From contig CM120645.1 in assembly GCA_051362555.1 (NCBI GenBank), positions 3,782,001 to 3,846,000 of the forward strand: a stretch of 64,000 bases of DNA. The letters run 5' to 3'. The notes below the pieces were generated by a model, which searched no databases, was not told the DNA's origin, and saw only the letters and a program-made list of their open reading frames with translations. The first letter of the stretch is position 1, and every line of letters begins with the position of its first letter. This document shows positions 2,888-56,830 of the stretch, piece after piece. Source of the stretch: Lingula anatina (lineage: Eukaryota; Animalia; Brachiopoda). The translations under genes were made by a program, and so were the position numbers.

Positions 2888-5800
2888 TCACAGCACTGAC
2901 CCCTCTGGCTGTATCAGATGACCATGGTCCAGTAACACAGAGTCCTCCCCCAAAATGGAGCACAGTTCCTGTAGTCTCTGCTGCATCTTAGGTATGCCAG
3001 CTAGCTGAGCCTCCAGCCCCTGTTTCTCCTCATTGAGTGACAGGCGCGTGGCTGTGTCCAGCTCCTCTAATCTCCAGCCTCCCTCGCCATCAAACTGGAG
3101 CAAATGAGTGTGGAACTTCCTGGAAAATTGATAAATATTTGGTGTGATGTTAAGAGTTTAGTACGTGAGGATCTTGGGAATGAAATGTATCTTGCAGAAA
3201 AAAAGAAGGCATTATGACCAACCATGAATATGAATGGGTGAAGCCAGAGCTCCCAAAACACGAAACCACAACTACCAGGGTGGGATGTCCAGAGAAAACT
3301 GCAGTATTTGTGGACATTCTCAAAACTAAAGGGAACAAGGTATTTGATTTATTAAGGGAATACCACACTAAAAATGGACAAAGTGAGGTTGCTACCCTTC
3401 TTAAATAGACTAATTAAGTGACCAAGAGAACTCACTCAGACAATGTGCAGCAGTCATGTTGTTGGTACAAAATTTGACATATCCTCAGTCAACAACTTTG
3501 GCCACACTGATTTAATATATCTCAGTCTAAATGGGAAATCTTTTTCACATAAAAACAGTAATAGACTATCATATTGTTCAAAGCGCCGATTGTTGTATAA
3601 TTAAAGTTAAAGTATAGCAAAAATGTATGTACACATGTAAATACACAGGTATAACCAAAGAACAGTCAAATAGAATATATTGCATTAAAATAAATGTGTT
3701 TTTTATTGGGATTTATTTAGATAAATTAAGATTGTTGATGTAAATAATCACTGAGTAAAATCAATACTATGCCAGCGGCAGTACAATGTGGTAGTATTAA
3801 ACGGAATTTCATTGAATTAATTAATTATTTCTGAGACATTAAAATTACAGGATTAAGTATCTTTTAAGTCCACCCATTACACCAAACACAAACATTATAT
3901 GTATAACAATATAACATAATCATAAATGAGAATTATCAAACACAAGGCAAAAAACTTTCACACCATTAGCTTACAGCCAACCTGGACATAAGCCTTCATC
4001 AGATTAATGACGTGAGCAGACTTTGACCCTCACTGACCACTGGGGGGTATATTGGCCAGGACCCTCTTATAAATGTCAGGCTTGTGTTTGATAATTTTCA
4101 TTTATGATCGAACTACCAAGATGATGAACATTTTTCCTCATCAACATAACAAAATGGTTTGCTTGCCACAGTGCCATATATAGACTTACAACCAAACCCA
4201 ATGATTCACCTACCACAAAGAAGGTCTGTGTGTTATAGTCAGTAGCATGATCCCTGCATCCTTGATAGCCTGGTAGATCTTGCTCTCCACATCAATAGAC
4301 ACAGCACTGGTGCATTCATCTAACAAAGCAAAACGTGGCCTGGAACATGTGAAGACACTTATTAATACACAGTCAAACTAAATCCAATTTTTCACACATA
4401 TTTGACAAATAGGAGTCTCCAAAATGATGTAATTAGGTAACTTCATAACAGTAAATAATCAATAAAATAAATATAAATAATTTGGTAATAAACAGGACTA
4501 TCTTTGGTTTAGGTTTACATTTATTTCAAATCAGATAATTGAATTCACGTTAAGACACTGATGAAATGCTGACAAATGGATTAAGTAATTTCATCTTAAT
4601 TTTCCCTCATTTCAGTCAAGGTAGTTGTGTAAGCTGGTTGTACCTGTGGTAGAATATCCTTGCCATTCCTATCCTCTGTTTCTCTCCTCCAGATAACACA
4701 TCTTTCCAGTCACTCTCAGCTCCCCAGCCTGGAACACAACAACTCTTAGGATAATAAAATCTATACTTTTTATTTTTTTCTAATACATTGAGCATATTTC
4801 AGACAAAGTATGATACAACTAGTCTAACATATGATTTTTGTTAGTGGATTTTATCCCTGAACATATTTTTTAAAATGAGGCATTCACTTTTCCAGAATAT
4901 AGACACAACTTTGGCAAAACAGACATACAAGGCTGGCATTTGACTATTCCCCAGTAACTAACTGGAAAGTCCCAATCTGATAAAACAAGACTATTATTAT
5001 TATTATTAATATTAAATGTAAAGATATCAGAGGATGTGATTAATTATGATTAAGCTGTGTAATTCCAATAATGAACAATTATTACGCATGTACATCTGAA
5101 ACTAGAAACTGTATCTTTCTGTCAAAAACTATAAATACTTTTTGCAGACATCTTACCTCCTTCTCTCTGTATAATATGTTGCAGGTTTACAATTCTAAAT
5201 ATATCCTCAAGATGTCTGTCTGTGAATCCTCTCTTCTTCATATCTGCTACACTATCTGGGTAGATCACCTGGTCTCTTAGTGTGCCGATGGACAAATAAG
5301 GTCTGGAATATATTGGCAAATTCTATAGCATGCCCATGAATAAAATGAATAACAGACCTTGAGGAGATGAAATACAACTAAATTCATACCATTGTTATAT
5401 GAAATCATCAACAGGTAAAATTTAGATGAGAATGAGAAAAGAAGTCATTACTATACCAACAAAAGGAATTGGAATTGAAATTTTTTCCAACTATTGCTGT
5501 CAGTTAACTCACCTTTGTGGAATATAAAACATCTGACTGGGAGGTGGTTTATGTAGGCGACCATTATACACAGGCCACAGACCACTTAGAATCCGGAACA
5601 GGGAGCTCTTACCACAGCCATTGGGGCCTGTTATCAGCAGGTGCATGTCGTGGTCCATCTGGAACAAATGTGGTAAACTCCCTGAACCTGATGAATTTTT
5701 TAAAAATCAAATCAAAAAATCTTATCATTCCTTGAATAGAAATGCCAAATAAGAGTTGTTTTCTTCTGATGTTATAAGCAAAATACCATTTTGATCAGTA

Positions 5801-8800
5801 TGTAGTTTAATCAATTTTGTTCCAATTTTTCATGTACCACCCCTCCCTTCTCTCCCCCCCCCCCCCCACCCCCACGCCAAAAAAAAAAAAAAGCCAGAGA
5901 AAGAGAGAACCCTCATCCACTGGATCTGTAGATATCAACAATTTTCTATTTTCAAAACACTTAAAAGTATTGTTGTTACCTGGAATGAGAGACTTGACAC
6001 CACAATATCTCCATTGGGTGTAATGATGGGAACATCTTCCAGTAAAATAGTGTCTGTATCAATAACTTCACCTATAGAAACAAAATAAATGAATAGATAA
6101 ATATTCATTTTTAGCTCTTGTCATCACATCTTTTTATTATCAGACATTGACCAGAACATGTATTAGATAAAGAGCACATGTATAGAATGACAGTATCTGA
6201 ATTTAAGGTATATGTATTAGCCTTACACTCACTCCGATTAACCATTATAAGTTACTCATCAGATTTGTACTTTTTTGTTACAAACTAGAGGATCAGAGAG
6301 GCGATACCGCCTCCGAATATTGTACCACCAGCTGGAGCAAGCGCATTCATAAAGACCCCCACATATACAAAATAAGGAACACAGCCACCAGTCTTGTGCT
6401 TGACAAGCTGTAAAAATGCAATCAACAAGAATTTTCAAAATATGCAAAAAATATATATATTACTAAAAATGGTACAATCAAAGTTAAGTTCATCGCAAGG
6501 TAGGTCAAAGGTCAATTCCAAGGTCACAGTAAATTGCCAGTATATGACTTCTTATTCAACTTCAATAGTAACTATGGGCCTATCTCTGCCAGGTTTGGAG
6601 TTAAAAGAGAAAGAAATTAGCAGAGTTCAGTTCATGATAATAACTAGGTCAAAGGTCAATTTCAAGGTCACACTTAGATTGCCAGTATATGACTTCCTAT
6701 TCACGTTCAATAGTAACTATGGACCTATCTTTGCCAGTTTTGGAGATAAAGGGGAAGCAAACTATGCAAAGTTCAGTTCATGGTGAAAAGTAGGTCAAAG
6801 GTCAATTTTAAGGTCACATTTAGATTGCCAGTATATGACTTCCTATTCAACTTCAATAGTAACTATGGACCTATCTCTGCCAGTTTTGGAGATAAAAGGG
6901 AAGCAAAATTTGCAAAGTTCAGTTCATGGTGAAAAGTAGGTCAAAGGTCAATTTTAAGGTCACATTTAGATTGTCAGTATATGACTTCCTATTCAAGTTC
7001 AATAGAAACTATGGACCTATCTCTGCCAGTTTTGGAGATATAAGGGACTAAATGTTATAATTTTGGAGTTACCATAATGTGCCATAAATTTCCTACAAAA
7101 AAAAATTAATTAAAATAAAGAAAAGGTCATTTTGGTCAAAATTCTTGAAATGGGAGGTGCTCTGAAGTTCCAGATGTTCAAATTTGATGAAATAATGTCA
7201 TTTTTGACCACAAGTTGTCTGCTTTGCCAAGCCTTATGTTTTATTTTTCCGGAGTTCAAAATTTATTATCCATTACCGTACTGCACATTTTGCTTTCACC
7301 ACCAATATGTACTTTTTGATACAGCGTAACTCAAAAACCGTATGGAATACAAAAAAACGGAGACCACCTCCAGTGTTGGGCTTTACATGCTCTACAAAAT
7401 GCAAAAAAGAATGGGTGTCTAGCATTAACGGTTCCGGAATTAGAGCAGTTTTCAGTTTCGATATCTTATGGCCGCTACTCCCGTGAAAATGCACCGATTG
7501 ACCCCAAATTCACGGAGATGAAAGATGACCTGAAGGGTAACACTTTCCATTAATATTATTAGTTAAGTCTGTGTTGTGTCTGAATAAGACCGCAAATAAT
7601 TTTTTTTTTGGCAAAAATTTTGTTTTTTTGAAAATTTTGGCCCGTTTGACCTTAAAATAAAGGTCAAAGGTCAAATCCAAGGGCATATTTGAAATCTACA
7701 CATATGACTTTTGGAAAGCTGTCTGTAGAAATTTTTCCCATAATTCCTTCTGTAGGGGAGATAATTAGCATTTAATTTTGCCATTTTTGGACAAGGGTGC
7801 ATTGCAATGAGTGCCACACCTAGACCCCAATACCGACAAAGCCCAAATTTTACGTGGAACGAGTTGAGATTATAGGTGACCTAAATCCAAGAGATGGGTA
7901 TGGAGGCCCTTACCGTCTAGGAGGAGAAGCGGTAACGGTGACTTGGCGGCGGAGCCGCAGGAGCCGGCGGAGCCGCAGGAGCCGGCGGAACATACGGGTC
8001 GGGACTAAAACCATGTGTACCGCCAGCGCCTACGCTGGTGGTACAATAAATGATTGCATATTAATATGTTTTTTTATAACACGTGGAAATCAAGATAAAT
8101 ATTTTAATTACATAAGTGAATCTTTTCTTTGGGGAGGGGGGGGTGGGGGAGGGGGTTAGGGGTACCTCTGGATCTGCCTTGTCAGATTTTTATAACAAGG
8201 CAGCAAAGCTGTCAAATGTACAGACAAAGAATAGAAAATAAAGATGCAAATAAGTGAAAAATTAAATTTTCACAAAAAACTGTTAAATTGCCAGAAAAAT
8301 TTACCAAACAGACTGCGTTGCCTATTGAAGCTGTATGTTAGACCCATGTTTCTTTCCTGTAAGTTTGAGAACAGTAAGTGACATGATTTCCCTTAAATGG
8401 TCATCATAGGAGCAGTGCCCAAAATAGGGGTTTCTTCAAATTTTGATGCAACATTACATAATGTTTAACAGCATAATGACAATCAAATGTTATTAATAAA
8501 ATATTAGTAACATGGACATTCAGAAAATGTGACAAGCAAAAGTCTTCAATATCATGGAACTTTAAAGTCACACCTTGAAAATGCCAATATGTGAAAAATT
8601 AAATTTTCACAAAAAACTGTTTAACTGCCAAAAAAAAAAAAAATACCAAACAGACTGCATTGCCTACTGAAGCTGTTTTTTAGTCCCATGTTTCTTTCCT
8701 GTAAGTTTGAGAACAGTAAGTGACATGATTTTCCTTAAATGGTCATCATGGAAGCAGTGCCCAAAATAGGGGTTTCTTCAAATTTTGATGCAATATTACA

Positions 8801-11800
8801 TAATGTTTAACAGCTTAATGACCATCAATTTTGAATTATAAAATATTTGTATCACAGATATTCAGAAAATGTGACTAGCAAAGGTCTTCAGGCCCATGGA
8901 ACTTCAAAGTCACGCCTTGAAAATGCCAAAATGTAAACAAGACAGCACTGTTCTGAAATGGGTTTATTTCCATTTTTAACACTTTTTTAACATAAAACAA
9001 AATAAACAGTTTTTTACCATTTGTATATGATCAACTAAGAAAATTGATGAGTTGGGAAAAATATCAATAGAACAGTGTTAAATGTCCAATTTCCTCCATT
9101 CTGAGATAATGAATATAGTAGATGATTGAATCTGACAAACTGCAATGATATTTGTTTATTTCCATTTTTGACACTTTATAACATAATACACAATAACAAG
9201 TTTACCATCATTTTTACATAATCAACTAACAATGTTATTAAGATGCAGGAAATGTCAAACAAACACTTTTACGTATCTTATTAGTTCAATAATGAGACTG
9301 TTAATATGCCTAACAATTGAATCTGAGGAAATGTGAAAAAACAGCATAACTTCTAAAAGAATGGCCCAATTATGCTGATTTTGGAACTCAACCTGCATTT
9401 TAGTTAGTTTGACTACTCCTGTGAGTATAATGACAATTGGCCTGTTTTTCTTATATTGTGTTATTAGCGTTGCATATATGTTGAAAGAAGTGAAAAAACA
9501 GCATAACATCCCTAAAAATGGCCCGATCATGCTGATTTTCAAACTTGACCTGCGTATTTTGAATATTCATCAGTTTTGTAAGTTTCAAGCCAAAAGGTAA
9601 AATGGTTTTCCATTTATGGTGTTATCGGTGCTGCATATATGCTGAAAAAGAGAAAAAATAGCCTAAATTCACTAAAAATGACCCAATCACGCTGATTTTC
9701 GAACTTGACCTGCGTATTATGAATATTCATCAGTTCTGTAAGTTTCAAGCCAAAAGGTAAAACGGTTTTCCACTTATCGTGTTATCGGTGCTGCATATAT
9801 GCTGAAAAAAGTGAAAAAACAGCATAAATTCCCTATAAGTGACCCGATCATGCTGATTTTCGAACTTGACCTGCGTATTATGAATATTCATCAGTTCTGT
9901 AAGTTTCAAGCCAAAAGGTAAAATGATTTTCCACTTATCGTGTTATCGGTGCTGCATATATGCTGAAAAAAGAGAAAAAATAGCCTAAATTCACTAAAAA
10001 TGACCCAATCACGCTGATTTTCGAACTTGACCTGCGTATAATGAATATTCATCAGTTCTGTAAGTTTCAAGTCAAAAGGTAAAACGGTTTTCCACTTATC
10101 GTGTTATCGGTGCTGCATATATGCTGAAAAAAGTGAAAAAACAGCATAAATTCCCTATAAGTGACCCGATCATGCTGATTTTCGAACTTGACCTGCGTAT
10201 TACGAATATTCATCATTTCTGTAAGTTTCAAGCCAAAAGAAAAAACAGTTTTCCACTTATCGTGTTATCGGTAAAAGTGCACGGCGACGACGGCAAAGGC
10301 GACGGCGACGACAGACGCAGATGATGGCTATATGTACAGACACATCTGTGTCTGTACATAAAAAGTGAAAAAACAGCATAAATTCCCTAAAAGTGACCCG
10401 ATCATGCTGATTTTCGAACTTGACCTACGTATTATGAATATTCATCAGTTCTGCAAGTTTCAAGTCAAAAGGTAAAATGGTTTTCCACTTATCGTGTTAT
10501 CGGTAAAAGTGCACGGCGACGGCGACGACAGACGCAGATGATGGCTATATGTACAGACACATCTGTGTCTGTACATAAAAAATACTGTCACCATGTACAT
10601 TTATTATACCTTTAATCTGGAGGGGCCCTTGGATCTTCTTCTGCGCTCCTTTTGCAGCCTTGTTGGAGGTGACCATGTTACGTTTGTATTTTCCTTTCCT
10701 CACATCTTCAAACACCTCAAACATCTCTGATACACGAGAGGTATAACCAGCTAGCTCTGTTATCTATATACACACACAAAATCGACAAAAATAAGCTGTA
10801 TATAAATTCAATGTCACACAATTAAATTCTCAAAGGCATTCAATTAAAGAACAGAATAAGATTATTCACCAGACCTTATTCACATCAGAAGTTCAATTGA
10901 AAAACAGTGGTCTACTAAAATAAACAAATCTTAATGAACAGAATCCCCACCTCTTTATAAGAAGACATCATTCTTTCTATTGCATCAGCTGAGTTGATCA
11001 AAAGGTTTCTAGCAGTGGTGAAATTCTGCGTGCGTTCACTTACTCCCCCATCTGGGTCATCATCTATAAAGCTACCTGAAAGCACACATGTAAAACACTC
11101 TCATTTAAATGCATCTTTTCACTCTTATATTCCAACTGCCTTAATTTAGATATATGTTATATAGACCATAGTCTTTTAATTGCACCAGGTCTGGATCAGC
11201 ATCTAAGTCACTATCTGATAAACAGATAAAACAGCAGAATAATATTGTTAGCATTGATCTTGTTATGATGTAACTGTTTTCCCTTCGATTTTTCCCCCCT
11301 GCCTCCCATCCCCATTTTCTCCACTTCTGCTTCTAAACAATGAAGTATCTGGAGCCAATATTCTATTACCATTTTCGTGTTAACATGGATGAAAACATTA
11401 CACTGCTCATGCTATACAGCAACTATGCCTAATCCAGTATACATTGATCATCTATAACTGGCCACACATGTTTGATAACTACACACACCTCCTACCATAT
11501 AATCACATATAAGCTTACCATCTTGTCTCTGTCCTACAGTAGTAATCATAGGCACTGCCACCATGACCAGACCACTAGCGCTCCAAACATATTTCATCAG
11601 GAACTGCTCCAGCATGATGTACCACAGTCGTTTACGGAAGATGAGGTCCATCTGATTAGCTAGTGCTTGGTAACTTCTCTGCAGCAGGCTCTCCTCGGTC
11701 TAGGAAAACAGGGAATAAACATAAAAAGGAGAGTTGTGGTTGAATTATGAGATGCTGTTCTTAATTTTATCATTAATAAATCATGTGAAACATATAATTG

Positions 11801-13018
11801 TGCCTAATAATTGTATTATGTTTTTTTTCTGAAGACAGTTAATTACTTGATTATCTGGTAAAAAATAAATGTTATGTGGAGACATAAAGTGAAGCATAAT
11901 ACTTACCTTGTGTCCTCCATAGAAGGCAATTTCCTCTGCATTAGCTATTACTCTGGAGTGAATATAGCGTAGGTATCCCTTCTTGCTGGCCTCTTCAGCA
12001 ACCAATTTTCCAAACTTTGGTGATACTGCTCGTAATACCTTGCCTGTTATCACAATAACTACAGCAGCGAGAACAGATGGAATTCGAGAACTTGCACCTC
12101 TACTTGATGCCAGCTACAATGATAGTAATGTTTCCACAATATTGTTCAATGAAATATGACATTATGAGGAAAAATTTAATATATATACAGACAAACCAAC
12201 ACTATGAAAACATTATCTCCTTCATTGGTAGAGGTAATTAAAATAATTTACAATTCCAGTTGTGATACCTTGTACAGAGTGAAAGACATCAAAGCCACAT
12301 CTAACAATGGTTTGGTGAGGTGGGAATATAGATGAGCAAGAGAGGAAGTAAATTCTGCAATATCTTCTGTCAGACACTGGTCGGCATTGGTCAAGCGCCC
12401 ATCCAAGTTGCTGACTCTGTAGTAAGTTTGATTGAGGAAATACTTGCTGTATGCATGATTTACGAGTTGTGTGCGCAGTGCCAAAGCCAGTTTACTCTCA
12501 AGAAAACGGATCAAACTGTTCACAAAGGTCGCTGGCACAGCAATGAGTAGCCATTTGGAAAGTTGGACAACAAATTTCATTACATCCTGTTTGACTATTG
12601 TTCTAACAATTCTGCCATCTAACTTAGCTACGTATATGGACAGAAATGTTCTTGATACAAGAGACGCCGTATGTAGGGCCAGTATGGCGAATTCTTTGGA
12701 CCAAATAGATGGGATGAGAATTTTCAACAGTTTTCTTAGTTGTAGGAAAAACTGTCTATCAACACCAGGTGCCCTTGCATTCTTTCGCTTTTCTGCTTCT
12801 TCACCTTCTCCGTCATCTCCATCTCCTTTTGATCCGTCTGCCCGTTTTCGACCTTTGATTTCAGGCAAGAAATACTTAGTCAGGTGAGGATAAAATCTTC
12901 CCACTCCGTATGCTGCTATTAAAGCAGCTGCAACACCGCCAATGACTTTCTTCCGACATCCAGGGTTTTTTGATGCAATTTTTATCAGTTTGTACACCGT
13001 TCTCTGTGCATTTTCCAT
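2888..13018 (-). CDS. ABCD2: Peroxisomal ABC half-transporter, subfamily D (ABCD1/ABCD2 co-ortholog), 11 coding exons, 747 aa
   Basis: Exons (minus): 13018-12269, 12113-11907, 11699-11519, 11075-10951, 10763-10610, 6071-5980, 5658-5513, 5302-5157, 4728-4644, 4339-4214, 3119-2888. All GT-AG with consistent phases, total 2244 nt. Motifs: [22 protein letters not shown]-like [19 protein letters not shown], Walker [10 protein letters not shown], signature LSGGEKQR, Walker [17 protein letters not shown]-loop [19 protein letters not shown]1 versus ABCD2 cannot be resolved from motifs; the symbol was chosen on synteny. Confidence 0.95.
6283..8047 (-). mobile_element. Non-autonomous Helentron/HINE-type element, family A, copy 1, with about 4 internal 146-bp tandem units (ABCD intron 5)
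   Basis: Near-identical to 36489-38816. Subterminal inverted repeat TTGTACCACCAGC/GCTGGTGGTACAA, terminal palindrome GTACCGCCAGC...GCTGGTGGTAC, GC-rich microsatellite-like (CGGAGCCGG)n; the other end has hairpin GAGGCG..CGCCTC and CTAG. No ORF. Confidence 0.75.
8194..10580 (-). mobile_element. Helentron/HINE (pearl-like) element, family B, copy 1, with an internal array of about 160-bp units (ABCD intron 5)
   Basis: Starts AACAAGGCAGCAAAGCTGTC-AAATGTACAGACA (hairpin plus subterminal repeat). Ends with a (GACGGC)n microsatellite and palindrome ATGTACAGACA-catc-TGTGTCTGTACAT. Array units begin near 9531, 9691, 9852, 10013, 10174. Homologous to 31897-34530. Confidence 0.72.
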
Positions 13019-13399
13019 TTCAGAAATGAGTACTAAGAAATTATATCACGTGAAAAAGAGGACGACGCGAACCTTGGCCACCATATTAGTGACCTTTACC
13101 TCTGGTGATTAAAAAATTTGGATTTTACCGAAATACTTGCATCTCGATATAATGCTCATAAGATATACCATATAAATCTCACTATATCCCAACAAAGAAT
13201 TCGATGTTTTCGAGAATATTAACAACCTAAAACTCCTATCATTTAACGTCAGTTTTTGTTATAAATTGTCTAAACCCGTGCATTTATATTAACCGGAAGT
13301 CAGCGCATCGTCTGCTATCTCTGCTAGCTGAGCTGTGTTTGGCAGCAGCCGAGTTGGTTATAGTTTCTTCGAAAGAAAACAACAACAGAAAAAATAACA
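13019..13399. promoter_or_regulatory. Probable bidirectional promoter shared by ABCD and REDIC1-like
   Basis: Divergent ATGs separated by 381 bp; local CpG enrichment; ETS/GABP motif ACCGGAAGT at 13292-13300; palindromic E-box TCACGTGA at 13046-13053. Confidence 0.6.
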
Positions 13400-44376: not shown

Positions 44377-44419
<43 letters not shown>

Positions 44420-47400: not shown

Positions 47401-50400
47401 TTTTATGAAAAATTCATGGCATTTGTATAGGCAAACCTATGTACCCACCCAATAAATAAAAACAATTGATCCGTCTGTATAAGGGTTCCATTATGTAAAA
47501 TTATCATTATAAAGAGTGTAGTGAAAATATAGACCGAATCCTTACTGCTGGTAGCACTTTCAACTCCCACTTAATACTGTTCAAGTATGTACAACACTAC
47601 AATAACTCTATAATATTATAAAAGTCATCATAAAATATATAGGAAAAAAAGAACCCAGACTGTCACTACTGGTAGCTACCACTTGCCATAGTGACGGTTC
47701 AAGTATATACACAGATTGCAATAAACTCTTCAAGAGATTATACTTCAATTAACAATTCAAGTATATATATATATATAAATAGCTACTTCAGGTATAAACA
47801 CTACCACTCCTTACAATAACATTGTTCAGGTATACAGCACATGCACAGCACATTTCATTTCTTCCATAAACCATGTGAGTTTTTCATGATATAAAATGAA
47901 AAATTATATCAATTGCTTTTTTACTTATTTTAATGCATGAAGCAAGATTTTTGGGTAATCTGACACAAAACTTTCCTTTTTTTTTACAGCAGTTAAAATA
48001 ATGTTAAAGGGGTGCAAGGTAATTCCACAGAATTATAACATTATATTTTTAATATTATATATAATATTAAAAATACAAAATTCTTTCATTTTTATAAATA
48101 AATTTTACCAAATAATGCATCTATTTGCATGCCCACAACAGGTGGAACAACATACAAAACATTCGAATGAACACTAACAAGATAATCAACAACAGTTAAA
48201 CATGCATGAGAAAAACAATGGCTTGCTCCAATAATCAAATATAAAATTTAATAAATCTTCATATACAAATTAATAACATGTGATTATGAAAAATGTTGTG
48301 GTGCATTTTTTTGTTTGTTTGTTTTTGGTAAAAAAAAAGGGGGTTGTGAAGACTCTGAAAAATGGTTGTTAATAGAGCATCTTCTTCAAGTTTGACCCAA
48401 AATGTAAAATGTTTACTGCCAATACACTCTTGAAACAGCCTAAGATTAGTGGAGTAGATGTAACAATTCCTACCTCCATCCTTGCTCAACATAGCAGAAT
48501 AGTCCATCGCAGACAGCCGCTACCAGAATGCCTGCAGTGATCAAAAGCTGATACAAGACAACAAGACGGCCGCGCAGGGGACTGGGCGCACACTCAGCGA
48601 CGTACATGGGGATGCAGGCGGAGGCAAGACCTGCGACAAACGCACAACAAGTTACAACATCTATGGGTCATGACACATAACAGGATGGGTTGTAACCCTA
48701 GACTTTATAAGGCCAGCCTTTCATATACATCTACATATTATAATGCAGCATTTTTTAAGTGCCACATTGTGACAGAGAGAAAGAAAGCCAAATTTTCATT
48801 TATGACAAAGGGGAGCTAATCTTCATTTTTGCAATGTGGTGTGCTCCACTAAGTATGCACCAATGGAGATTTTAAAATGAAGAAGCTTGCTGATACACAT
48901 AGGGAGAAATGTAGCAAGAGGAAGAGAAAATTAAAATTACCATGAATAGTTACAAACTGCCATGAATTGGCATTGGAATATCTTCCGCTCAGATTACTAT
49001 ACTGAAATTTGCTGTATAAATTCAATTCACACAGTGCAAAGGCAAATGTTGGTTTCTGAACTGGTCACAGCTCATTTTTTGTTGAAAATCTTTTATATAT
49101 ATTTCTATCTGAAGAGTCTGCGACACATAAATTTGTTCACAGAGAAAGGCTGGCCAGACAAACAAAATTAAATTCTAAAAATAAAATGCTGAATGTCTGC
49201 ATGAAATATCTGAAAACAAACAAAGCCACAGCATTACCAGTATACTAAATGAATTTGTTTGAAAATAAATTATAATATCTCACTAATGTCAAACATCCCA
49301 ATTAATATACCAAATATCTTATCATTTCGAGACTTATTACATTCAGTTACTGACACAGGGACTTGATGACAACAAACTATTACCATAATAATTATACAGA
49401 ATTATCTGAGAAGATGCTTTAGAAGCAAAAGATTGCATTTGGGAATTGTTTGAATTTAGTGAGAAATCAATATAATCATGGTACTAAATGAGAGTGGTAC
49501 ATTGATATGCAAGCCTACATAATCATGCAATGAACTCAAACATGAAAATATTAACAATAACATTAATGCAAGCATTTAAAACTGCATCCAATAAGAAATT
49601 AAAGTGGAAATCAAGCCAAGACTGATATAATTTTTATTTGGCTGGTGAAATGATTTTATACATGCAGATATGCATTTCTACGTTGATTGTTGCCACTGGT
49701 TAAAAATTAAAGAGACCAGGATCCCTTTAAAGACTACACCCCTTTATCTCCCTGCATCGTTACCCTCCCTGAGGACAGATTCCCCCTAGTAACATCCAAA
49801 ACAAAACATTTTTCTTTTCAAAAATACGCCTTCTTGGCATCCAAAAGTGACAAAGAATCAAATCATCATCCATAAATCCACTCTGCTGATAAGACCTAAG
49901 GGCAATTTTTCAGTTTCCATCCATGAGGGGGAGTGACGGTGCAGGGGAGTAATGATGAGAAGGTTTAGTGATGTGCATAATATTGTAATTATACTAGGCT
50001 AAGAGGAATTAACTATGCAGGGTTGAAAAATGATGATGTCCTTTTAACAATGCAGAATAGAAGATCTGAGTATCAACTTTCTTGATCCAAGATGGCAGAC
50101 CCTACATGAAAGGAAGACCGCTTAATCCTTTAATGGTCTATCTGCCTCTCACACACCTCTCCACATGTCTGGTTGAATGGAGCCAAGATTTAATTACTAT
50201 GCCCCTGCAGGGACGACGCATGGGGAGGCGTGTGAGAGGTGGAGAGACTATTACATGGTAGTAGTAGTAGTCTTCCTTTCATGTAGGGTCTGCCATATTT
50301 GATCCTTGGACCAGTTGGTACTCGGATCTTCTATTCTGAATGGCCCCAATGAGCTGTGTACTTTCAAGGACTGCTGCAGGTCTGTTCCTGCATGTTCCTG

Positions 50401-53400
50401 GGCCTGTTTCATGAAGAACTTCGGTATATACTGTAGTTGATTTTATCTCAAAGACCAAAAATTCAATCTATTTTTAATTTAGGATATTTCTGCAGTAGTT
50501 CACCGAAACGGAGTAACTATTGGTTTAAAGGGGAGACTGTTTCTTTTTGTCATAAAACAGACTCAATATTTCATTTAACCGGACTATATTGGATCAAAAT
50601 AGACTTAGGTTTTGGGTTTAAAAGTTAGGACCAACTTTTGGTTTTAAATTCTCTAGTGAAAAAGGCCCAGGTCATCAGATGATGCAAGTCAGGCTGATTG
50701 GCATTCCAAAATGTTCTTGTCTAAACAGAAGTAGACCACAAACCTCCACCCATCGTGCTGATCTTTGCTGAAAAGCCCATCTACCACATTAGCAATAAAC
50801 TGTCCGAAAGCCACCATGGCCACGTTAGTAGACACAAGGCGCCCCCTAGTGTGAAAAGGAGCAGCCTCCGCGATATACATGGGAATGGTTGTTGATGTTA
50901 AACCTGAAAAATGTATAACGTAAAGTTTTAATCATAAATGCAAACATTTTTATCATGCTTTACATTTGTAGGCAGTTAGATCACTGTGATCAAAGTGAAC
51001 ATCAGTCACACCTAGTTTAAGATATTTTACAATTATTAATTTAGTTTACTTAAACATATTTTGATAAATGCATGTATTGATTTAAATTTGGTCTTTTTTT
51101 TTTTTCAATCCACTCAATAAAAGTCAGATCCTTTGGGATAATATCCATCAGTGTACCACAGGTTACAAATTACTCCAGCATCATAATTATTTGAACCATT
51201 ATGATCATAATAACCAAATATCATACAACAATGAATGTCATCCATCTGGCAATGGACCTTTGATATAATTCATACATTTTTAATGATAGATACTGGTACA
51301 GTTACTATCATTCTGCTATAGCAGAGGTCTATTTACAAGCCAGCAACTCAATAGCCTCAACTATGTAAGCAAATGGTACCCTTATAATGAGCTCTATCTT
51401 TGCTATCACTGGGCACAGTAGAAAACTTCATTCATTTAAAATATTGGTGGGCGGACAACAAAAAGATAATACTGGCTGCCTGTGGTTGGCAACTGTAGCC
51501 AAATGTTGGTAGGCAGGACAACAAAGGGATAAGATTGGCTGCCTGTGATTAGAAATTGTAACTAAATGTTGGTAGGCAGGACAACAAAGAGATAAGATTG
51601 GCTGCCTGTGATTAGAAATTGTAACTAAATGTTGGTAGGCAGGACAACAAAGAGATAAGATTGGCTGCCTGTGATTAGAAATTGTAACTAAACGTTGGTA
51701 GGCAGGACAACAAAGGGAAAAGATTGGCTGCCTATGATTAGAAATTGTAACCAATTGTTGGTAGGCAGGACAACAAAGGGATAAGACTGGCTGCGTGTGA
51801 TTAGAAATTTTGCTCAGATAATATCTATCAAATTAAACTGTCATACTTAACAAAAGCGTAAATACACAGTTTACAGAGAAAGAGAACAAATTTTAACTTA
51901 AAAGTTACAGTAAAAGTGATGAGGCAGTTTGTCCTTTTAAATAAAAATATCTAAAAGTTAAAATGTATGATTTTGAATTGTTTTTGAAAAGTCTCATCAG
52001 TTTGGTACATGATGGAGATCAAAAGCTCTTTTGTCACAAACTTTTGATAAGATGTTTCAGAGTCTTTACTACAGGCTTTACGAAAAGACCAGAGATATTT
52101 TAAGATAATGAAACTCCTACCATTGGTTTCTTTAACCAGTCAAACTTAAGATTTTTAATGGCACCATTATGGGCCTCAGCAGATGAAATGAGGTTGATGG
52201 AACAACAAGGATCCCCCTAAAGTACTGTAAACAGAAAACCTATGGACAGTGCCCATACTTCATTTGCCAACAACAAACTAAGCTTGATTGATGTTCCCAA
52301 GACTGGCTTAATCATACTGTTTCCCAAGTCATCAGGGCTATCCAATAACTGCCATTGAAGAGGCCTGTGTCTACACTAGGACTTCCATGTCAATACGGCA
52401 GCTAAATGTCAGCTCATATTTGCCTATAATCAATTATGTCACTTCCCAATATGAGTTTGGTATACCAGAGAAAATGGCCATCAACAAAGTTTATTATTTC
52501 CATGCATAGATAGAATACTGGTAAATGTATGTATAGAATGGCCTCAAGGGGTAGAGACGAACTATGACAGATTATAGAATATGTAGAACTTCAAAAGGAA
52601 AAAATATCGGTTTCTACATGTATGTACACAGAAATGCAATGGAGCATTATACCAGGCATGAGACCAGTCCTCACTGAAAAAGTAGGATTTACACGATTCA
52701 CTGGATTTAGACAATTCACAAGAATGACCCAAATGACCCCGAAAAAGTCAGAATTCTGACAAAAGTCCAACAATAGTTGGAAAAATCCCATCAGTGTTAT
52801 AGTACTCATATTTTAAAAAAAAAACAAAGAATTTTCAGTCTTAATTTATTTTTGACTCTCTCTCTCTCTCTCTCTCTCATCTTTCCTAGTTTGAAAACTA
52901 TATCAGCACGTATAGATTTGACAAAATTTGCAGCAATTAGTAAAACTCTACATCAAGGGACACAAGTTTCATCAAATTATATTACTAGTACAGATATTTT
53001 GTTGAACCACACATGTTGATAAAATTACTGGGTGCAAATCTCATTATAAATCAATGTTTTGATCAGCAGATACAAGACACACATCCTCATTAATGAGATA
53101 TTCTTTGTAAATGTCATGACCAATGATTCTGTCACATCAGCTAAATTTAAAGAAGAAACCGACAGCTGCCAGGTAAAAATCTAGCCCTTTAAAATATGGA
53201 CTGCAGACAAAAATTACCAAGTTCACTAGTTTGTGCAAGGTTTTCAAGTGCTAACTCAAAGGTCATCAACTGGAATATGGTGACAATATGAGGACAGTGT
53301 TTTGAATTTAAGTATTCTGCTCAGGTGAGATTCATCACAGGTAAATAAAAAAGGACAGGGTTCTCAGCCCTTTTGCAGAACAGGTCACCTAACATGGCAG

Positions 53401-56400
53401 AACTAATTGCATCACTTGATCATTGGATGAATTGGCATATTTCGCATACATATACAAAGATTTTGACAATGCTTTGAAGACTCCAACACACACTTATAAG
53501 ATGCTGACTAGTGAAGGGGCGGATCCAGAGTTATTTTCTGACAGTCTTCCAATTTATCTTTGTTGATCCATCTTCCATTTTTGACCGTCTTCCGACAGAA
53601 AAAATTAGATACCCGTCAATGTAAACTTGACAAATCTGACCGTCTTCCGGAAGACCCAGAAGACGCCCTAAATCCGCCCCTGTAGTGGGCCCTAGATTCT
53701 GGCAAAGCATGGGTTAGGTCTTTGTAGGGCTGTGAATTTTCACAGGACCAAAACCTGAATTTGTATCCACCCATCAGGGCTTCAATTATCTCAAAATAAA
53801 ATGATTTCTGAAAGAACATTCACAATACAAATTTATAAAATAAGGGAATAAAATAATTACTGCTGTAATTGACACGCATAGACCACTCATGAAACCTTCC
53901 CTATTAAAGTTCTTGGCTACGGAAATGATGTTGAGCACTGACAGAATAAAAAAATGGAAAAAAAAGTACTATCTTGTTTTTATATACTACATTGTCATTT
54001 CATTATGTCTCAGTGGGATTTACGATAGACCAGGCTTACTATAGCTTATTTTAGCATGACATTTCATCATCGCTACATTTCAACATTGGTCTGGATTTGC
54101 ACTGACTGTAACTATATTTGTTCCCACCTCCCTGGGGAGGGTATAATATTATTCATGCATGGTCCTTAAGTTATTAAGTTACCACGGAATTATCAGTGCA
54201 ATGTTTAGAAGAGTTTTATCAAATTATTAAGTTAGATCTACTGTGATTCCTCAGGTAGTCATTCCCACTTCCCACAGAAATATTTCCATTGAGCCCAGGT
54301 AATAAAAAAACATCAAGAAAATGAAATGACACCTTCAAACCAAAACCACTGATATGACTTCATCAGCAAAATGACAATAACAGTTCTTTTTTTTTTTTTT
54401 AACTAGAAAAATAATGTTCATGTTCAAAACTATAAGATGATAATTTAACAACCAGTTTCATATACTAGTAAAGGCATTTTTATTAGCCTGACTCTGGCTA
54501 ATAGGGTAAATATTAACTTAACTTATTAAAAACAGTTAAAACCATTTCAATATTTTTTCTATTACTATTTTAATAGTTAAAACAACTAAAGGCGTAATCA
54601 TTCAAACTGCACAGTGCACTTACATCTAATAGACACTTTTTGATAATCTGAACTCCCACGTTATTAACTTGCTGATTGCTTTGCCAGATTTTGCGTAGGC
54701 TGTTGCATAAGAGTCTAAGGATTTAGTCAATCACAGCAACCAGACTTAGCGCAAAGTTTTCCCAGAATTGATGTTAATTTCTCCAGGGTTTGAATCATAG
54801 CTATCTACTTCATTATCACTTTGACCTGGATTTGTAGCTCTTGTTGAATAATACAACAAATCTGTACTGACTGTTAATAAGACATTCTGTCTGTCATCTT
54901 ACTGGTCCTTTCTCGCTGAATTGGCACATTCAGATTTTTGTTACCCTCGCCAACAAAGAGGCAGAGTTTTCTTTAGCACTAGATTGTCTGAATGCATATA
55001 TCTGCTTGCTAGTGGAAATGCAAGATTATTTCATCAGCAAAATCACCATGTAAAAATTCTTGACAAATTTTGATGAATTTTTCAGGATAGACAGATACTC
55101 AGGAGGCGTGGAGGTGATTATGAGTTAAATTGAACTTAGATCTCCTGACAATTTAATTATCTTTGTTGCCTTAATTTATTTCCAGACATCTCCTTGGAAT
55201 GCTATGTTCTTAAAGTAATAATTTTAAATAGATGATGCTTCAATGTTCCAAGATGCATGCCTATTCCTGAAAGGATTTTTCACGTCTAGTATAGTCACTA
55301 AGAACAGACCGATTCTGACAAGACCTGTCAGTTCTACTGTATTTCCAATTATTGCTTGACCTTTATTTTTCTCTCTAGTGTGATAGGCTTCAGTATGGAC
55401 ATGATTTTGATCCAAATTTAATGACTGGAAATGTAATAATTTTGAAAGCTTTCTGTAAGTGTTAAGGTTTTAATGTGAAAACCTAGCTTAAACAGTGGCT
55501 TAATATCTATAGGTACATGTGTGATGAGTAGGCTAAAATGTAAAGCTTTTATTGATTTTATTTCACCAAATTTTCAAGTTTATGGATATGATTCTGAAAT
55601 GTTCATGTTAATCAAATGTTTTTTTTTATATCAGTTGTGATGATTAACTTTTAAGTTAATTTTAAGTTCTTTTAAATTCACTTTAGAACGCTCTTTTTTT
55701 TTGGGGGGGGGGGGCTATGAATAAATTTATCTAGAACACTCAATAAAGCCACTTTCCCATTTATTTTTAATAATTTTTATTTATTTTTGATAATTATCAA
55801 TATATGTTTATTCTCTTATAATAACTGAAAAATCCTCAAAGTTCTTAATTTTATTCATTTTTAATCTTTCTGTTCATCTATACATTTATTCACCCACTAG
55901 GCATTTGTTCAATAATTTTATTCATCCATTTTAATTGATCTAATGGAGGTTAAATTAATTATTTACAGTATGTTTGAAACTGTGGTAGAGATGTGATGGT
56001 TGAGAGGATTAGGCAGCATAAATTAATAAATAGATGAATAAATAAGTAGATATATAGGTGGATACTAGAAGACAGACAGATAGGTGGGGTAGTGCTAGCA
56101 TTTTTTTTTTTTTTCGCTTAGCCAAATCACCACTTTTTTGTCAATTTGTTATCCAAAAGATTATAATTTGACTAAAACAAGCCAAATCAAGCCCTTTTTG
56201 TTTAGCAAATTTTAAGTCAGTTTTAGCATTTGGATAAATTGGTGAGTGTTAGCGATACCCCAGGATAGGTATAAGTACATACACAGTGTGTACATGCGGA
56301 TACACTGTACATGATATGCATGTATGTAGCAAGTATTCATCACCTCAAATCTTGCTTCCCAATATATTAGTGGCAATGAAATTTATTAGACCATGATAAC

Positions 56401-56830
56401 CTTACATCTGGATAGACATACCTATTGCAATGCCGACCACAATGCGTCCTGCAAGCAGCATATACTTGTCAATGGCGAGCCCCATAATTATGGACCCCAC
56501 TGTAAAGATTAGGCTGGCCGTAACGATAACAGGCTTGCGACCGAAACTGTCATTCAACACACCGCCAACTAAGGCAAACACGGCGGCCGCTCCTATCGTT
56601 ACACTCACTATAAGTTCCTGCCACAGGGAGTCCAGGCGGAACTCTTCTCGCAAGAGGATCATTGCTCCTGAAACCACCCCTGTGTCATACCCAAAGAGGA
56701 ATCCACCGATTGCTGAGAACAGTGTCAAAACGTAAACAAACGCTGGAGTTCGTTGTTCTTGCCCGATGCGGTCCATTCTTAGCGCAGAGTCGTCGTCCGA
56801 GTCATGCCCAAGGGTATTTGGGCGTTCCAT
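26929..56830 (-). CDS. SLC2A13: H+/myo-inositol cotransporter HMIT/GLUT13 (MFS sugar porter), 11 exons with an alternative exon 2; 594 aa (2a) or 593 aa (2b)
   Basis: Exons (minus): 56830-56422, [50903-50744 or 48630-48474], 42352-42278, 41911-41775, 41525-41414, 40859-40696, 31428-31323, 30400-30252, 29952-29860, 28580-28428, 27155-26929. Motifs: [51 protein letters not shown], the HMIT-specific Cys-rich exofacial loop (CDQCM...CGFCY...NGSC...GRC...WAYDYCPT), [39 protein letters not shown]. Confidence 0.96.
30443..30705. mobile_element. Fold-back MITE (GAGnGCATTCAGAA-type termini, PIF/Harbinger-like)
   Basis: Termini GAGGGTACTCAGAA / TTCTGAATGCCCTC. Inner arms CACTAAAAAGCAG/CTGCTTTTTAGTG and TAATCCCCTGATGG/CCATCAGGGGATTA. 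Confidence 0.6.
31087..31285. mobile_element. Fold-back MITE, same terminal family
   Basis: Termini GAGCACAATTAGAACAG / CTGTTCTGAATGCGCTC; arms GATCAAATATGGC / GCCATATTTGATC; flanks TAA and CAA. Confidence 0.6.
31897..34530 (-). mobile_element. Helentron/HINE element, family B, copy 2, with an internal duplication of about 1.1 kb (SLC2A13 intron 6)
   Basis: Same termini as 8194-10580. The block at about 32455-33625 recurs, partly deleted, at about 33626-34530. Confidence 0.72.
36091..36268. repeat. Minisatellite, 4 x 44 bp (ATAGCTAGGACCTACCCAGACCTAGTTGTAGTGGGCCCTAGTTC)
   Basis: Unit starts at 36091, 36135, 36179, 36223; contiguous with no spacers. Confidence 0.92.
36489..38816 (-). mobile_element. 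Helentron/HINE-type element, family A, copy 2, with about 8 internal 146-bp tandem units (SLC2A13 intron 6)
   Basis: Same termini and core as 6283-8047. Unit marks (TCAAAGGTCA) at 36700, 36844, 36990, 37136, 37282, 37428, 37574, 37720. Confidence 0.75.
44376..44420. repeat. (TAAA)n microsatellite
   Basis: About 11 perfect units. Confidence 0.9.
45825..46080. mobile_element. Fold-back MITE (GGGnnCATTCCCA-type termini)
   Basis: Perfect arms AGATTGATCCAACTCTGCAGGGACTCT / AGAGTCCCTGCAGAGTTGGATCAATCT; outer ATTCCCA / TGGGAAT. Confidence 0.6.
48474..48630 (-). CDS. SLC2A13: SLC2A13 alternative exon 2b (157 nt; TM4-TM5), hexose-transporter-like; absent from the ORF track
   Basis: tttgtcgcag|GT...TGG AG|gtagga, phase 1 to phase 2, no stop codons. 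Encodes [53 protein letters not shown]. About 57% GC by hand count within an AT-rich intron. Confidence 0.9.
50046..50347. mobile_element. Fold-back MITE (about 300-nt hairpin) between SLC2A13 exons 2a and 2b
   Basis: Arms CAGAATAGAAGATC/GATCTTCTATTCTG, ATGGCAGACCCTACATGAAAGGAAGAC/GTCTTCCTTTCATGTAGGGTCTGCCAT (perfect 27 bp) and CCTCTCACACACCTC/GAGGCGTGTGAGAGG. Confidence 0.7.
50744..50903 (-). CDS. SLC2A13: SLC2A13 alternative exon 2a (160 nt; TM4-TM5), HMIT-like
   Basis: ttttcag|GT...TGG AG|gtttgt, phase 1 to phase 2. Encodes [54 protein letters not shown]. Confidence 0.92.
51441..51809. repeat. Minisatellite, about 6 x 63 bp, in SLC2A13 intron 1
   Basis: Unit AAATGTTGGTAGGCAGGACAACAAAGAGATAAGATTGGCTGCCTGTGATTAGAAATTGTAACT; gives the 21-aa repeating ORF at 51428-51754. 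Confidence 0.92.
53514..53682. mobile_element. 169-bp MITE, copy 2 (5-bp TSD TAGTG)
   Basis: Same internal sequence and TIRs as 17027-17195; TAGTG on both sides. Confidence 0.85.

What the first reader, a model, noticed from the sequence alone, without database searches (positions are those of the whole stretch)
2888..56830. ABCD(-)/REDIC1(+)/SLC2A13(-) reproduces the human 12q12 gene order and orientation
Seen: ABCD is head-to-head with the C12orf40-like gene, which is tail-to-tail with SLC2A13. From memory, human ABCD2, C12orf40/REDIC1 and SLC2A13 are consecutive with the same orientations. Inference: a three-gene microsyntenic block kept since the bilaterian ancestor despite unrelated functions, which suggests shared cis-regulation. 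It also supports the orthology of the fast-evolving middle gene and suggests ABCD2 rather than ABCD1 kept the ancestral neighbourhood.
Basis: partly seen in the sequence, partly recalled or inferred. Interest (0 to 1): 0.7.

Follow-up and report, generated by a model that had tools for sequence, protein, structure and literature searches.

The report
Ancient ABCD–REDIC1–SLC2A13 gene trio
In a lamp shell (brachiopod), a fatty-acid transporter gene, a meiotic-crossover gene and an inositol-transporter gene sit side by side in the same order and orientation as in cattle and the same order as in humans, so the trio is likely inherited from the common ancestor of molluscs and vertebrates, probably kept together by tight packing rather than by shared function.

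Summary
Confirmed. The window is Lingula (brachiopod) DNA carrying ABCD1/2(-), REDIC1/HEIP1/C12orf40(+) and SLC2A13/HMIT(-) as direct neighbours. The middle gene is REDIC1: a vertebrate-only profile hits its N-terminus at E 4e-18, and Singh 2023 already lists this protein. Cattle annotation gives the same order and strands; human and pig give the same order (human strands not seen). Pairs stay tightly linked in four molluscs and a crinoid, but REDIC1 and SLC2A13 are on different scaffolds in two starfish and a coral. Chance is excluded, so descent from the protostome-deuterostome ancestor is likely; a 2022 survey dated the ABCD2-C12orf40 link as vertebrate-novel. ABCD2 as keeper of the neighbourhood is supported. 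Shared cis-regulation is only partly supported: the 381-bp head-to-head gap is CpG-rich with an ETS/GABP site, but the cattle gap is 4.4 kb, expression differs, and an equally tight SLC2A13-MGLL pair next door is not kept in mammals. A new member of a class of hundreds of ancient blocks. The scan had not noted the trio before; a side finding, two mutually exclusive exon-2 versions in SLC2A13, was noted before in another genome.

The parts
2888..13018 (-). ABCD1/2 pro-orthologue (peroxisomal ABC half-transporter), 11 coding exons, 747 aa
   Evidence: Model without internal stop, all GT-AG; introns 1-4 as RNA joints; Pfam ABC_membrane_2; 634 bits to ABCD1 vs 295 ABCD3 and 109 ABCD4; tree
13019..13399 (.). 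381-bp head-to-head gap between the two start codons; candidate shared (bidirectional) promoter, CpG o/e 1.25 against 0.35 for the window
   Evidence: reads on opposite strands either side in run X12
13293..13300 (+). ETS/GABP-type site CCGGAAGT, the only one in the 64-kb window
   Evidence: 1 match, 0.27 expected in the window; 22 of 5000 shuffles of the gap hold it; chosen after inspection, 1 of 8 motif classes looked at
13400..24735 (+). REDIC1/HEIP1/C12orf40 orthologue, 10 coding exons (13400-13462, 13811-13958, 14271-14424, 14726-14921, 15131-15241 with a GC donor, 15556-16613, 17420-17462, 17741-18361, 18737-18794, 22736-24735), 1483 aa
   Evidence: 97.6% identity to RefSeq LOC106164584; low RNA depth on the expected strand in X12; splice joints not seen in RNA
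13400..14424 (+). Exons 1-3, encoding the conserved N-terminal ~120 aa that defines the family
   Evidence: 95 hits at E<=1e-3 among 1.84e9 representatives; vertebrate-only profile E 4.1e-18; Singh 2023 Dataset S3
19308..22690 (-). Full-length RTE-type LINE (endonuclease + reverse transcriptase, open frame of 1058 codons) in REDIC1 intron 9, 12-bp target-site duplication
   Evidence: clade name RTE is from recall of the layout
24736..26928 (.). 2,193-bp tail-to-tail gap holding both 3' ends
   Evidence: low RNA depth from the - strand transcript reaches 24929-25400
26929..56830 (-). SLC2A13/HMIT (proton myo-inositol cotransporter) orthologue or co-orthologue, 11 coding exons, 594 or 593 aa
   Evidence: trees
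50744..50903 (-). SLC2A13 exon 2a (TM4-TM5; Val/Gln at the GLUT1 Q161/I168 positions, the usual HMIT type)
48474..48630 (-). SLC2A13 exon 2b (TM4-TM5; Gln/Ile at the GLUT1 Q161/I168 positions, hexose-porter type); mutually exclusive with 2a by frame
   Evidence: used by RefSeq isoform X2, P0122; both or neither exon frameshifts; alignment to GLUT1
57235..62890 (+). Monoglyceride lipase (MGLL)-like gene, head-to-head with SLC2A13 (404 bp); outside the finding, used as internal control. End read from the sequence, model not built

Best explanation
The three genes are direct neighbours in Lingula in the same order and orientation as in cattle, likely because the arrangement was inherited from the protostome-deuterostome ancestor and probably survived because the gaps between the genes are tiny and hold promoter and 3'-end signals, not because the genes work or are expressed together. 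Shown: gene identities, order, strands, the mammalian match, pairwise linkage in other phyla. Inferred: (1) common descent (about 0.9); (2) the 381-bp gap works as one CpG-rich, ETS/GABP-type promoter region used in both directions, so a breakpoint there would damage a housekeeping gene and a fertility gene at once; (3) the 2.2-kb tail-to-tail gap is a small target; (4) after the vertebrate duplications the extra REDIC1 and SLC2A13 copies were lost beside ABCD1 and kept beside ABCD2; (5) the constraint is weak, so single links have broken in some lineages.
For: Chance estimate 0.0006-0.08 per genome pair. Cattle order and strands, human and pig order, ABCD2-C12orf40 consecutive accessions in elephant shark and seahorse. 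Tight pairs in invertebrates: Lymnaea ABCD/SLC2A13 consecutive accessions on one 3.14-Mb scaffold; Solemya REDIC1/SLC2A13 consecutive locus tags; Gigantopelta ABCD/REDIC1 five accessions apart; Elysia marginata ABCD/REDIC1 on one 414-kb scaffold, four apart; crinoid Anneissia REDIC1/SLC2A13 on one 273-kb scaffold. Gap: CpG o/e 1.25, reached by 0.8% of 1,273 equal windows; the window's only CCGGAAGT, a site reported to drive bidirectional activity in human promoters (PMC2077898). Against co-regulation as the cause: REDIC1 depth 0.9-2.4 vs ABCD 42-48 in X12, and near zero in X16 and X18 where ABCD is read; mouse REDIC1 is gonad-dominant. ABCD1 and ABCD2 are sister vertebrate clades, 100/100; ABCD1 lies with SLC6A8, PLXNB3, SRPK3.
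Against: Vertebrate gaps are no longer tiny (cattle 4,404 bp and 59,872 bp), yet the order persists, so tight packing cannot explain the mammalian retention by itself. The SLC2A13-MGLL gap is as short (404 bp) and is not kept in mammals, so a short gap does not guarantee retention. REDIC1 and SLC2A13 lie on different scaffolds in 4 of 10 comparable species (Patiria, Acanthaster, Acropora cervicornis, and the fragmented RefSeq Lingula assembly). In Lymnaea no accession lies between ABCD and SLC2A13, so REDIC1 is unannotated, moved or lost there. No invertebrate other than the window was shown to hold all three adjacent, and no invertebrate strands were seen. Accession order and contig length are indirect proxies. 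The ETS site was picked after looking.
Confidence: 0.58

Rival explanations
1. Inherited block kept by true co-regulation: one bidirectional promoter co-ordinates REDIC1 with ABCD (for example in germ cells that need very-long-chain fatty-acid import), and selection on that coupling has held the order for over 550 million years.
For: 5'-5' orientation kept in cattle; gap under 1 kb, CpG-rich, ETS/GABP site; ABCD and REDIC1 on the same contig in 4 of 4 comparable invertebrates (Lingula RefSeq, Gigantopelta, Elysia marginata, Liolophura); the run with most ABCD reads also has most REDIC1 reads; conserved pairs are enriched in 5'-5' layout and co-expression (PMC3514665).
Against: Cattle gap 4.4 kb, beyond the 1-kb mark of bidirectional promoters; REDIC1 gonad-dominant in mouse; 20-50-fold depth difference in X12 and near absence in two of four runs; says nothing about SLC2A13, which is tail-to-tail; Lymnaea shows no annotated gene between ABCD and SLC2A13.
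Confidence: 0.17
2. Inherited block kept by no constraint at all: one of the several hundred ancestral blocks that survive by luck in slowly rearranging genomes.
For: Lophotrochozoans keep 93% and vertebrates 16% of bilaterian-novel blocks (PMC8851819); links not seen in starfish and coral; unrelated functions; no developmental regulator in the block.
Against: The same three genes persist separately in vertebrates (which lost most such blocks), a crinoid, several mollusc classes and a brachiopod whose chromosomes were fused with mixing (PMC13121700).
Confidence: 0.2
3. Coincidence, mis-orthology or misassembly: the window joins unrelated pieces or the genes are paralogues that came together independently.
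For: The RefSeq Lingula assembly holds ABCD+REDIC1 on a 37.8-kb and SLC2A13 on a 489-kb scaffold; SLC2A13 has extra spiralian paralogues and a weakly resolved base.
Against: A misjoin would not reproduce the cattle order and strands; the REDIC1-SLC2A13 link recurs in Solemya and Anneissia; window has no N; chance estimate.
Confidence: 0.05

Closest known systems
Mammalian ABCD2-C12orf40/REDIC1-SLC2A13 locus (human 12q12; cattle BTA5 40.8-41.6 Mb)
   Same: Same three gene families, same order (human, pig, cattle), same head-to-head and tail-to-tail layout (cattle).
   Different: Lingula block is 54 kb against about 760 kb in cattle; gaps 381 bp and 2.2 kb (codon to codon) against 4.4 kb and 60 kb (gene ends); REDIC1 1483 aa against 652 aa (P0282) and lacking PF15089; next gene beyond SLC2A13 is MGLL-like, not LRRK2; one ABCD gene stands for ABCD1 and ABCD2.
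Block 612 'Vertebrata novel' of Robert et al. 2022 (PMC8851819, supplementary file 4)
   Same: Holds ABCD2 and C12orf40 as consecutive genes in Callorhinchus and Hippocampus.
   Different: Dated there to jawed vertebrates and without SLC2A13; the core link is shown here in a brachiopod and molluscs. The likely reason it was missed is that invertebrate REDIC1 escapes BLAST orthogroups (inference). The file was cut when stored, so further rows may exist.
Conserved ancestral microsyntenic pairs kept by co-regulation (Irimia et al. 2012, PMC3514665; e.g. HSPE1-HSPD1, HADHA-HADHB)
   Same: 5'-5' layout, gap under 1 kb in Lingula, non-developmental genes.
   Different: Those examples are functional partners with high co-expression; here the functions are unrelated and co-expression is not shown. 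Whether the pair is in their list could not be checked (supplement not readable).
HEIP1/REDIC1 pro-crossover family (Singh et al. 2023, PMC10265981; PMC10447524)
   Same: Conserved N-terminal patch; this very Lingula protein is hit No. 100 of the human C12orf40 search (probability 97.98, E 1.3e-7, 49% identity over 57 columns).
   Different: Much longer tail; similarity to vertebrates extends to about residue 120; function in Lingula untested; the paper does not use the word synteny.

Membership tests
HEIP1/REDIC1/C12orf40 (as defined by Singh 2023) | Conserved N-terminal ~70 aa (MNW.GG.R ... QKE(F/Y)FE ... S.DLL) | tested here: met
   Profile of 8 PF15089-bearing proteins hits the model at E 4.1e-18; the only other hits among 2,885 window ORFs and 240 other proteins are its own exons 1-3 (these 8 were first found with the Lingula query). 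BLAST to P0282 40% over 122 aa. Dataset S3 lists the protein.
HEIP1/REDIC1/C12orf40 (as defined by Singh 2023) | Largely unstructured remainder | tested here: inconclusive
   Ser/Lys/Thr/Glu/Asn/Pro/Gln-rich, no Pfam domain; no structure prediction was run.
HEIP1/REDIC1/C12orf40 (as defined by Singh 2023) | Meiotic expression and role in class I crossovers | not testable with these tools
   Tissue of the RNA runs unknown; depth 0.9-2.4 in one of four runs.
HEIP1/REDIC1/C12orf40 (as defined by Singh 2023) | Single copy per genome | not testable with these tools
   No whole genome held for this window.
Pfam PF15089 Redic1-like (not filed under it) | Match to the 425-position model | tested here: not met
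   No hit for P0001. The model covers residues 226-650 of the 652-aa protein P0282 and hit 10 of 45 family proteins scanned, none of those later named as invertebrate: it describes the vertebrate C-terminal part.
ABCD1/ABCD2 subfamily | ABC_membrane_2 plus nucleotide-binding domain, half-transporter | tested here: met
   Walker A and signature motifs in the model
ABCD1/ABCD2 subfamily | Closer to ABCD1/2 than to ABCD3 or ABCD4 | tested here: met
   634 vs 295 vs 109 bits; 28-row tree puts it among protostome single copies outside the ABCD1+ABCD2 clade; no ABCD3/4 outgroup in the tree
SLC2A13/HMIT | Sugar-porter fold and best matches named proton myo-inositol cotransporter or SLC2A13 | tested here: met
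   no named hit of another family among the best 120 (several are unnamed or hypothetical); Cys-rich loop before the last helices visible (hallmark recalled)
SLC2A13/HMIT | One-to-one orthology with human SLC2A13 | tested here: inconclusive
   Window gene sits in a lophotrochozoan clade (100/99), sister to arthropods (81/89); deuterostomes form a clade (93/94); further spiralian paralogues, among them a second Lingula gene, are unresolved; tree unrooted
Microsyntenic block (Robert 2022: three or more orthologues, at most five intervening genes) | Three orthologues adjacent in two distant species | tested here: met
   Window vs cattle and human; only pairs shown in other invertebrates
Co-regulated ancient pair (Irimia 2012) | 5'-5' orientation, conserved | tested here: met
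   Window and cattle; strands in other invertebrates not seen
Co-regulated ancient pair (Irimia 2012) | Intergenic distance under 1 kb | tested here: inconclusive
   381 bp in Lingula, 4,404 bp in cattle
Co-regulated ancient pair (Irimia 2012) | Correlated expression | tested here: inconclusive
   Four runs, low counts; mouse REDIC1 gonad-dominant
Co-regulated ancient pair (Irimia 2012) | Conserved intergenic sequence across species | not testable with these tools
   No animal genomic DNA of relatives could be fetched
Genomic regulatory block (not filed under it) | A developmental regulator with bystander genes | tested here: not met
   The four genes found are two transporters, a lipase and a meiotic factor; a target outside the window is not excluded

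The most novel reading that the evidence does not exclude
A bidirectional ETS/GABP-type promoter has wired the meiotic crossover factor REDIC1/HEIP1 to the peroxisomal very-long-chain fatty-acid importer since the protostome-deuterostome ancestor, so germ cells switch on crossover control and lipid import together, and the ABCD-SLC2A13 interval is an address at which REDIC1 can be found, or its loss proven, in any bilaterian genome.
Probability: 0.15. Interest if true: 0.65.

Novelty: new member of a known kind. Interest (0 to 1): 0.36.

Why it matters
It re-dates a linkage listed as vertebrate-novel to the protostome-deuterostome ancestor and shows how blocks built around a fast-evolving gene are missed by orthogroup-based synteny surveys. 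It gives sequence-independent support for REDIC1/HEIP1 orthology in invertebrates and a place to look for the gene where BLAST fails (for example between ABCD and SLC2A13 in Lymnaea). It identifies ABCD2 as the duplicate that kept the ancestral neighbours. It does not yet show a new mechanism; hundreds of such blocks are known.

Tried and rejected
Pfam scans of the middle gene's exons and full protein gave nothing; explained by the model's scope. A word-index search with exon 2 found only the Lingula protein. RefSeq XP numbers on chromosome-scale assemblies proved non-positional or uninformative (Liolophura 1,202 apart, Lineus 107, Gigantopelta ABCD/SLC2A13 about 30,000 apart on one chromosome, B. 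belcheri about 750 apart on one 8.6-Mb scaffold) and were not counted as tight linkage. Tubulanus (ABCD on a 244-kb contig, HMIT 15 accessions away, its second contig length not shown) is suggestive only. Pinctada's distant locus tags concern the other HMIT paralogue. Of 17 REDIC1 proteins looked up (of 94 non-self hits), 7 gave no linkage information (Nematostella, Octopus bimaculoides, Saccoglossus, Styela, Elysia chlorotica, two unnamed). A pre-bilaterian age was not supported: Acropora cervicornis has REDIC1 and HMIT on different scaffolds; ABCD was not tested in cnidarians. A genomic regulatory block was rejected for lack of a developmental gene. My first ABCD model had shifted boundaries and its tree was discarded. 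The careful HMIT tree did not finish; one search is a finished one on 36 rows. No RNA holder was listed by the run index. REDIC1 splice joints were not seen in RNA. Tandem alternative first exons as noted for octopus HMIT were looked for and not seen here. Literature searches for a description of the invertebrate block found none; supplements of PMC4595640 and PMC13121700 held no match; those of PMC3514665 could not be read.
Full report
Organism and genes. Exon 2 of the middle gene matches one database protein at 100%, Lingula anatina LOC106164584; the flanking genes match Lingula ABCD2-like and proton myo-inositol cotransporter records at 99-100%. The window is thus Lingula DNA, a different haplotype from the RefSeq record (97.6% identity over the middle protein). 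No whole genome was held. Exon models built from the sequence read through without stops: ABCD 11 exons, 747 aa, 13018 to 2888 on - (first four introns seen as RNA joints); middle gene 10 exons, 1483 aa, 13400-24735 on +; SLC2A13 11 exons, 594 or 593 aa, 56830 to 26929 on -. Translated searches and ORF scans showed no other host gene between them, only a LINE in REDIC1 intron 9. Stranded reads in run X12 lie on opposite strands on the two sides of 13.2 kb.

The middle gene is REDIC1/HEIP1/C12orf40. Pfam is silent because PF15089 covers only residues 226-650 of the mammal-type protein P0282 and hit 10 of 45 family proteins scanned. The first 118 residues found 95 proteins at E<=1e-3 among 1.84 billion, nearly all carrying the MNW.GG start motif. 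A profile from 8 PF15089-bearing proteins hits the window's model at E 4.1e-18 and nothing else but its own exons among 2,885 window ORFs and 240 other proteins. Dataset S3 of Singh 2023 (PMC10265981; passages of text and of the dataset seen) lists this Lingula protein as a hit of human C12orf40 (probability 97.98, 49% identity over 57 columns) and of Arabidopsis HEIP1. The orthology was therefore already in a supplement; the synteny adds independent support.

Flanking genes. ABCD scores 634 bits against ABCD1, 295 against ABCD3, 109 against ABCD4. In a 28-row tree ABCD1 and ABCD2 are sister vertebrate clades (100/100) with hemichordates outside, so the Lingula gene is co-orthologous to both. 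The HMIT tree, built without exon 2 on 36 of 120 hits, puts the window's gene in a short-branched lophotrochozoan clade (100/99) sister to arthropods (81/89), with deuterostomes as a clade (93/94) and extra spiralian paralogues unresolved. It is an orthologue or co-orthologue of human SLC2A13.

The mammalian locus. A cattle annotation table (PMC12075139, supplement rows; 12 of 15 files searched) gives SLC2A13(+), C12orf40(-), ABCD2(+) in a row: head-to-head gap 4,404 bp, tail-to-tail gap 59,872 bp. A human table (PMC6114488, one row) names ABCD2 left and SLC2A13 right of C12orf40; pig SNP positions (PMC11065719, table rows) give the same order; all three are listed at 12q12 (PMC7465025, table). 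Human strands rest on recall. ABCD1 lies with SLC6A8, PLXNB3 and SRPK3 (PMC13264567, passage). A rough chance figure for an identical triple is 0.0006-0.08 per genome pair.

Other animals, by proxy. No animal DNA of relatives could be fetched, so I used contig lengths, locus tags and accession order. ABCD and an HMIT share a contig length in 11 of 13 species listed in both searches (not Tachypleus, not the fragmented RefSeq Lingula assembly); most are whole chromosomes and show only macrosynteny, and a cluster's longest contig can belong to another member. REDIC1 shares a contig with ABCD in 4 of 4 and with HMIT in 6 of 10 comparable species. Tight links: Lymnaea CAL1527025/CAL1527026 (ABCD, HMIT); Solemya ScPMuIL_009395/009394 (REDIC1, HMIT); Gigantopelta XP_041379611/XP_041379616 (REDIC1, ABCD); Elysia marginata GFS05983/GFS05979 on a 413,890-bp scaffold; the crinoid Anneissia with REDIC1 and HMIT on one 273,035-bp scaffold. 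Misses: Patiria, Acanthaster and Acropora cervicornis have REDIC1 and the HMIT found on different scaffolds. All three pairwise links thus occur in molluscs, one in a crinoid, and the full trio in Lingula and mammals. Descent from the protostome-deuterostome ancestor is the simplest reading; an older age is not supported and xenacoelomorphs were not tested.

What holds it. The ABCD-REDIC1 start codons are 381 bp apart; the gap has CpG o/e 1.25 against 0.35 for the window and 0.14-0.42 in gene bodies and holds the window's only CCGGAAGT (22 of 5000 local shuffles; picked after inspection among 8 motif classes). Such a site raised reverse-direction activity in 4 of 6 human promoters (PMC2077898, passages). 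This makes a shared promoter region likely in Lingula. It does not make co-regulation the cause of conservation: the cattle gap is 4.4 kb; mouse REDIC1 is gonad-dominant (PMC10447524, passages); REDIC1 depth is 20-50-fold below ABCD in X12 and near zero in X16 and X18; SLC2A13 is tail-to-tail; and the SLC2A13-MGLL pair next door is just as tight (404 bp, CpG o/e 0.81) while the mammalian neighbour on that side is LRRK2 (human MGLL on another chromosome is recalled). I commit to inheritance plus a weak, mechanical constraint from tight packing and shared promoter DNA (0.58), against plain survival (0.20), true co-regulation (0.17) and artefact (0.05).

Novelty. Ancient blocks of this kind number in the hundreds (PMC8851819 and PMC3514665, passages). 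Robert 2022 lists ABCD2 and C12orf40 in block 612, labelled vertebrate-novel, without SLC2A13 (supplement rows, file cut when stored). Searches found no description of the invertebrate block; supplements of PMC4595640 and PMC13121700 (passages) held no match; the pair list of Irimia 2012 could not be read and may bear on novelty. Earlier notes of this scan do not mention ABCD2, REDIC1 or C12orf40.

Side finding. SLC2A13 has two versions of coding exon 2 (160 and 157 nt, both phase 1 to 2, GT-AG); one or the other keeps the frame, both or neither break it. RefSeq isoform X2 uses 2b; neither junction was seen in RNA here. At the positions of GLUT1 Q161 and I168, 2b has Gln and Ile like GLUT1, 2a has Val and Gln; of 108 homologues with this segment, 103 have Gln at the second position and 4 have Gln at the first. 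Two Daphnia isoforms are identical outside and 32% alike inside this exon. A substrate-pocket switch is an inference (the sugar-binding role of those GLUT1 positions is recalled). The scan noted a like pair in another genome.

Verdict: observation confirmed; interpretation partly supported; new member of a known kind; interest 0.36.

Noticed in passing
window 50744-50903 and 48474-48630 (-): Two mutually exclusive versions of SLC2A13 exon 2 (TM4-TM5) that swap residues at the GLUT1 Q161/I168 positions; Daphnia isoforms P0209/P0224 also differ only here, and a sea spider HMIT (P0137) has the 2b-type Gln. Possibly an old substrate switch and more interesting than the synteny.
   Followed up: partly
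window 57235-62890 (+): MGLL-like gene head-to-head with SLC2A13 at 404 bp. A fish slc6a8a copy is flanked by kbtbd12, recalled as MGLL's human neighbour, while ABCD1 lies by SLC6A8: MGLL may belong to the same ancestral segment and have been kept on another duplicate.
   Followed up: partly
window 19308-22690 (-): Full-length LINE with an open 1058-codon frame, short-repeat tail and 12-bp target-site duplication, ending 45 bp before the acceptor of REDIC1's last exon; looks young.
   Followed up: partly
window 15241-15242 (+): REDIC1 intron 5 needs a GC donor; the RefSeq protein has the same joint.
   Followed up: yes
Lymnaea CAL1527025.1 / CAL1527026.1: No accession between ABCD and HMIT: REDIC1 unannotated, moved or lost in this snail.
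   Followed up: no
P0204, P0138, P0144, P0178, P0181, P0201, P0212: Second set of spiralian HMIT paralogues, on the same chromosome as the first in Littorina, Lineus and Tubulanus: likely an old local duplication.
   Followed up: partly
many Equus rows: Horse and donkey records hold many partial, internally repeated ABCD2-like proteins on several chromosomes.
   Followed up: no
window about 9500-10580, 17027-17195, 32200-34600; also 6300-7550 and 36900-38300: Dispersed repeats that draw many RNA reads, CpG-rich in the first case, and a repeat shared by ABCD and SLC2A13 introns.
   Followed up: no
P0328 and P0321: Saccoglossus REDIC1 is annotated as dentin sialophosphoprotein-like, and one hit is fused to a GDSL lipase model: family members are often mislabelled.
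   Followed up: no
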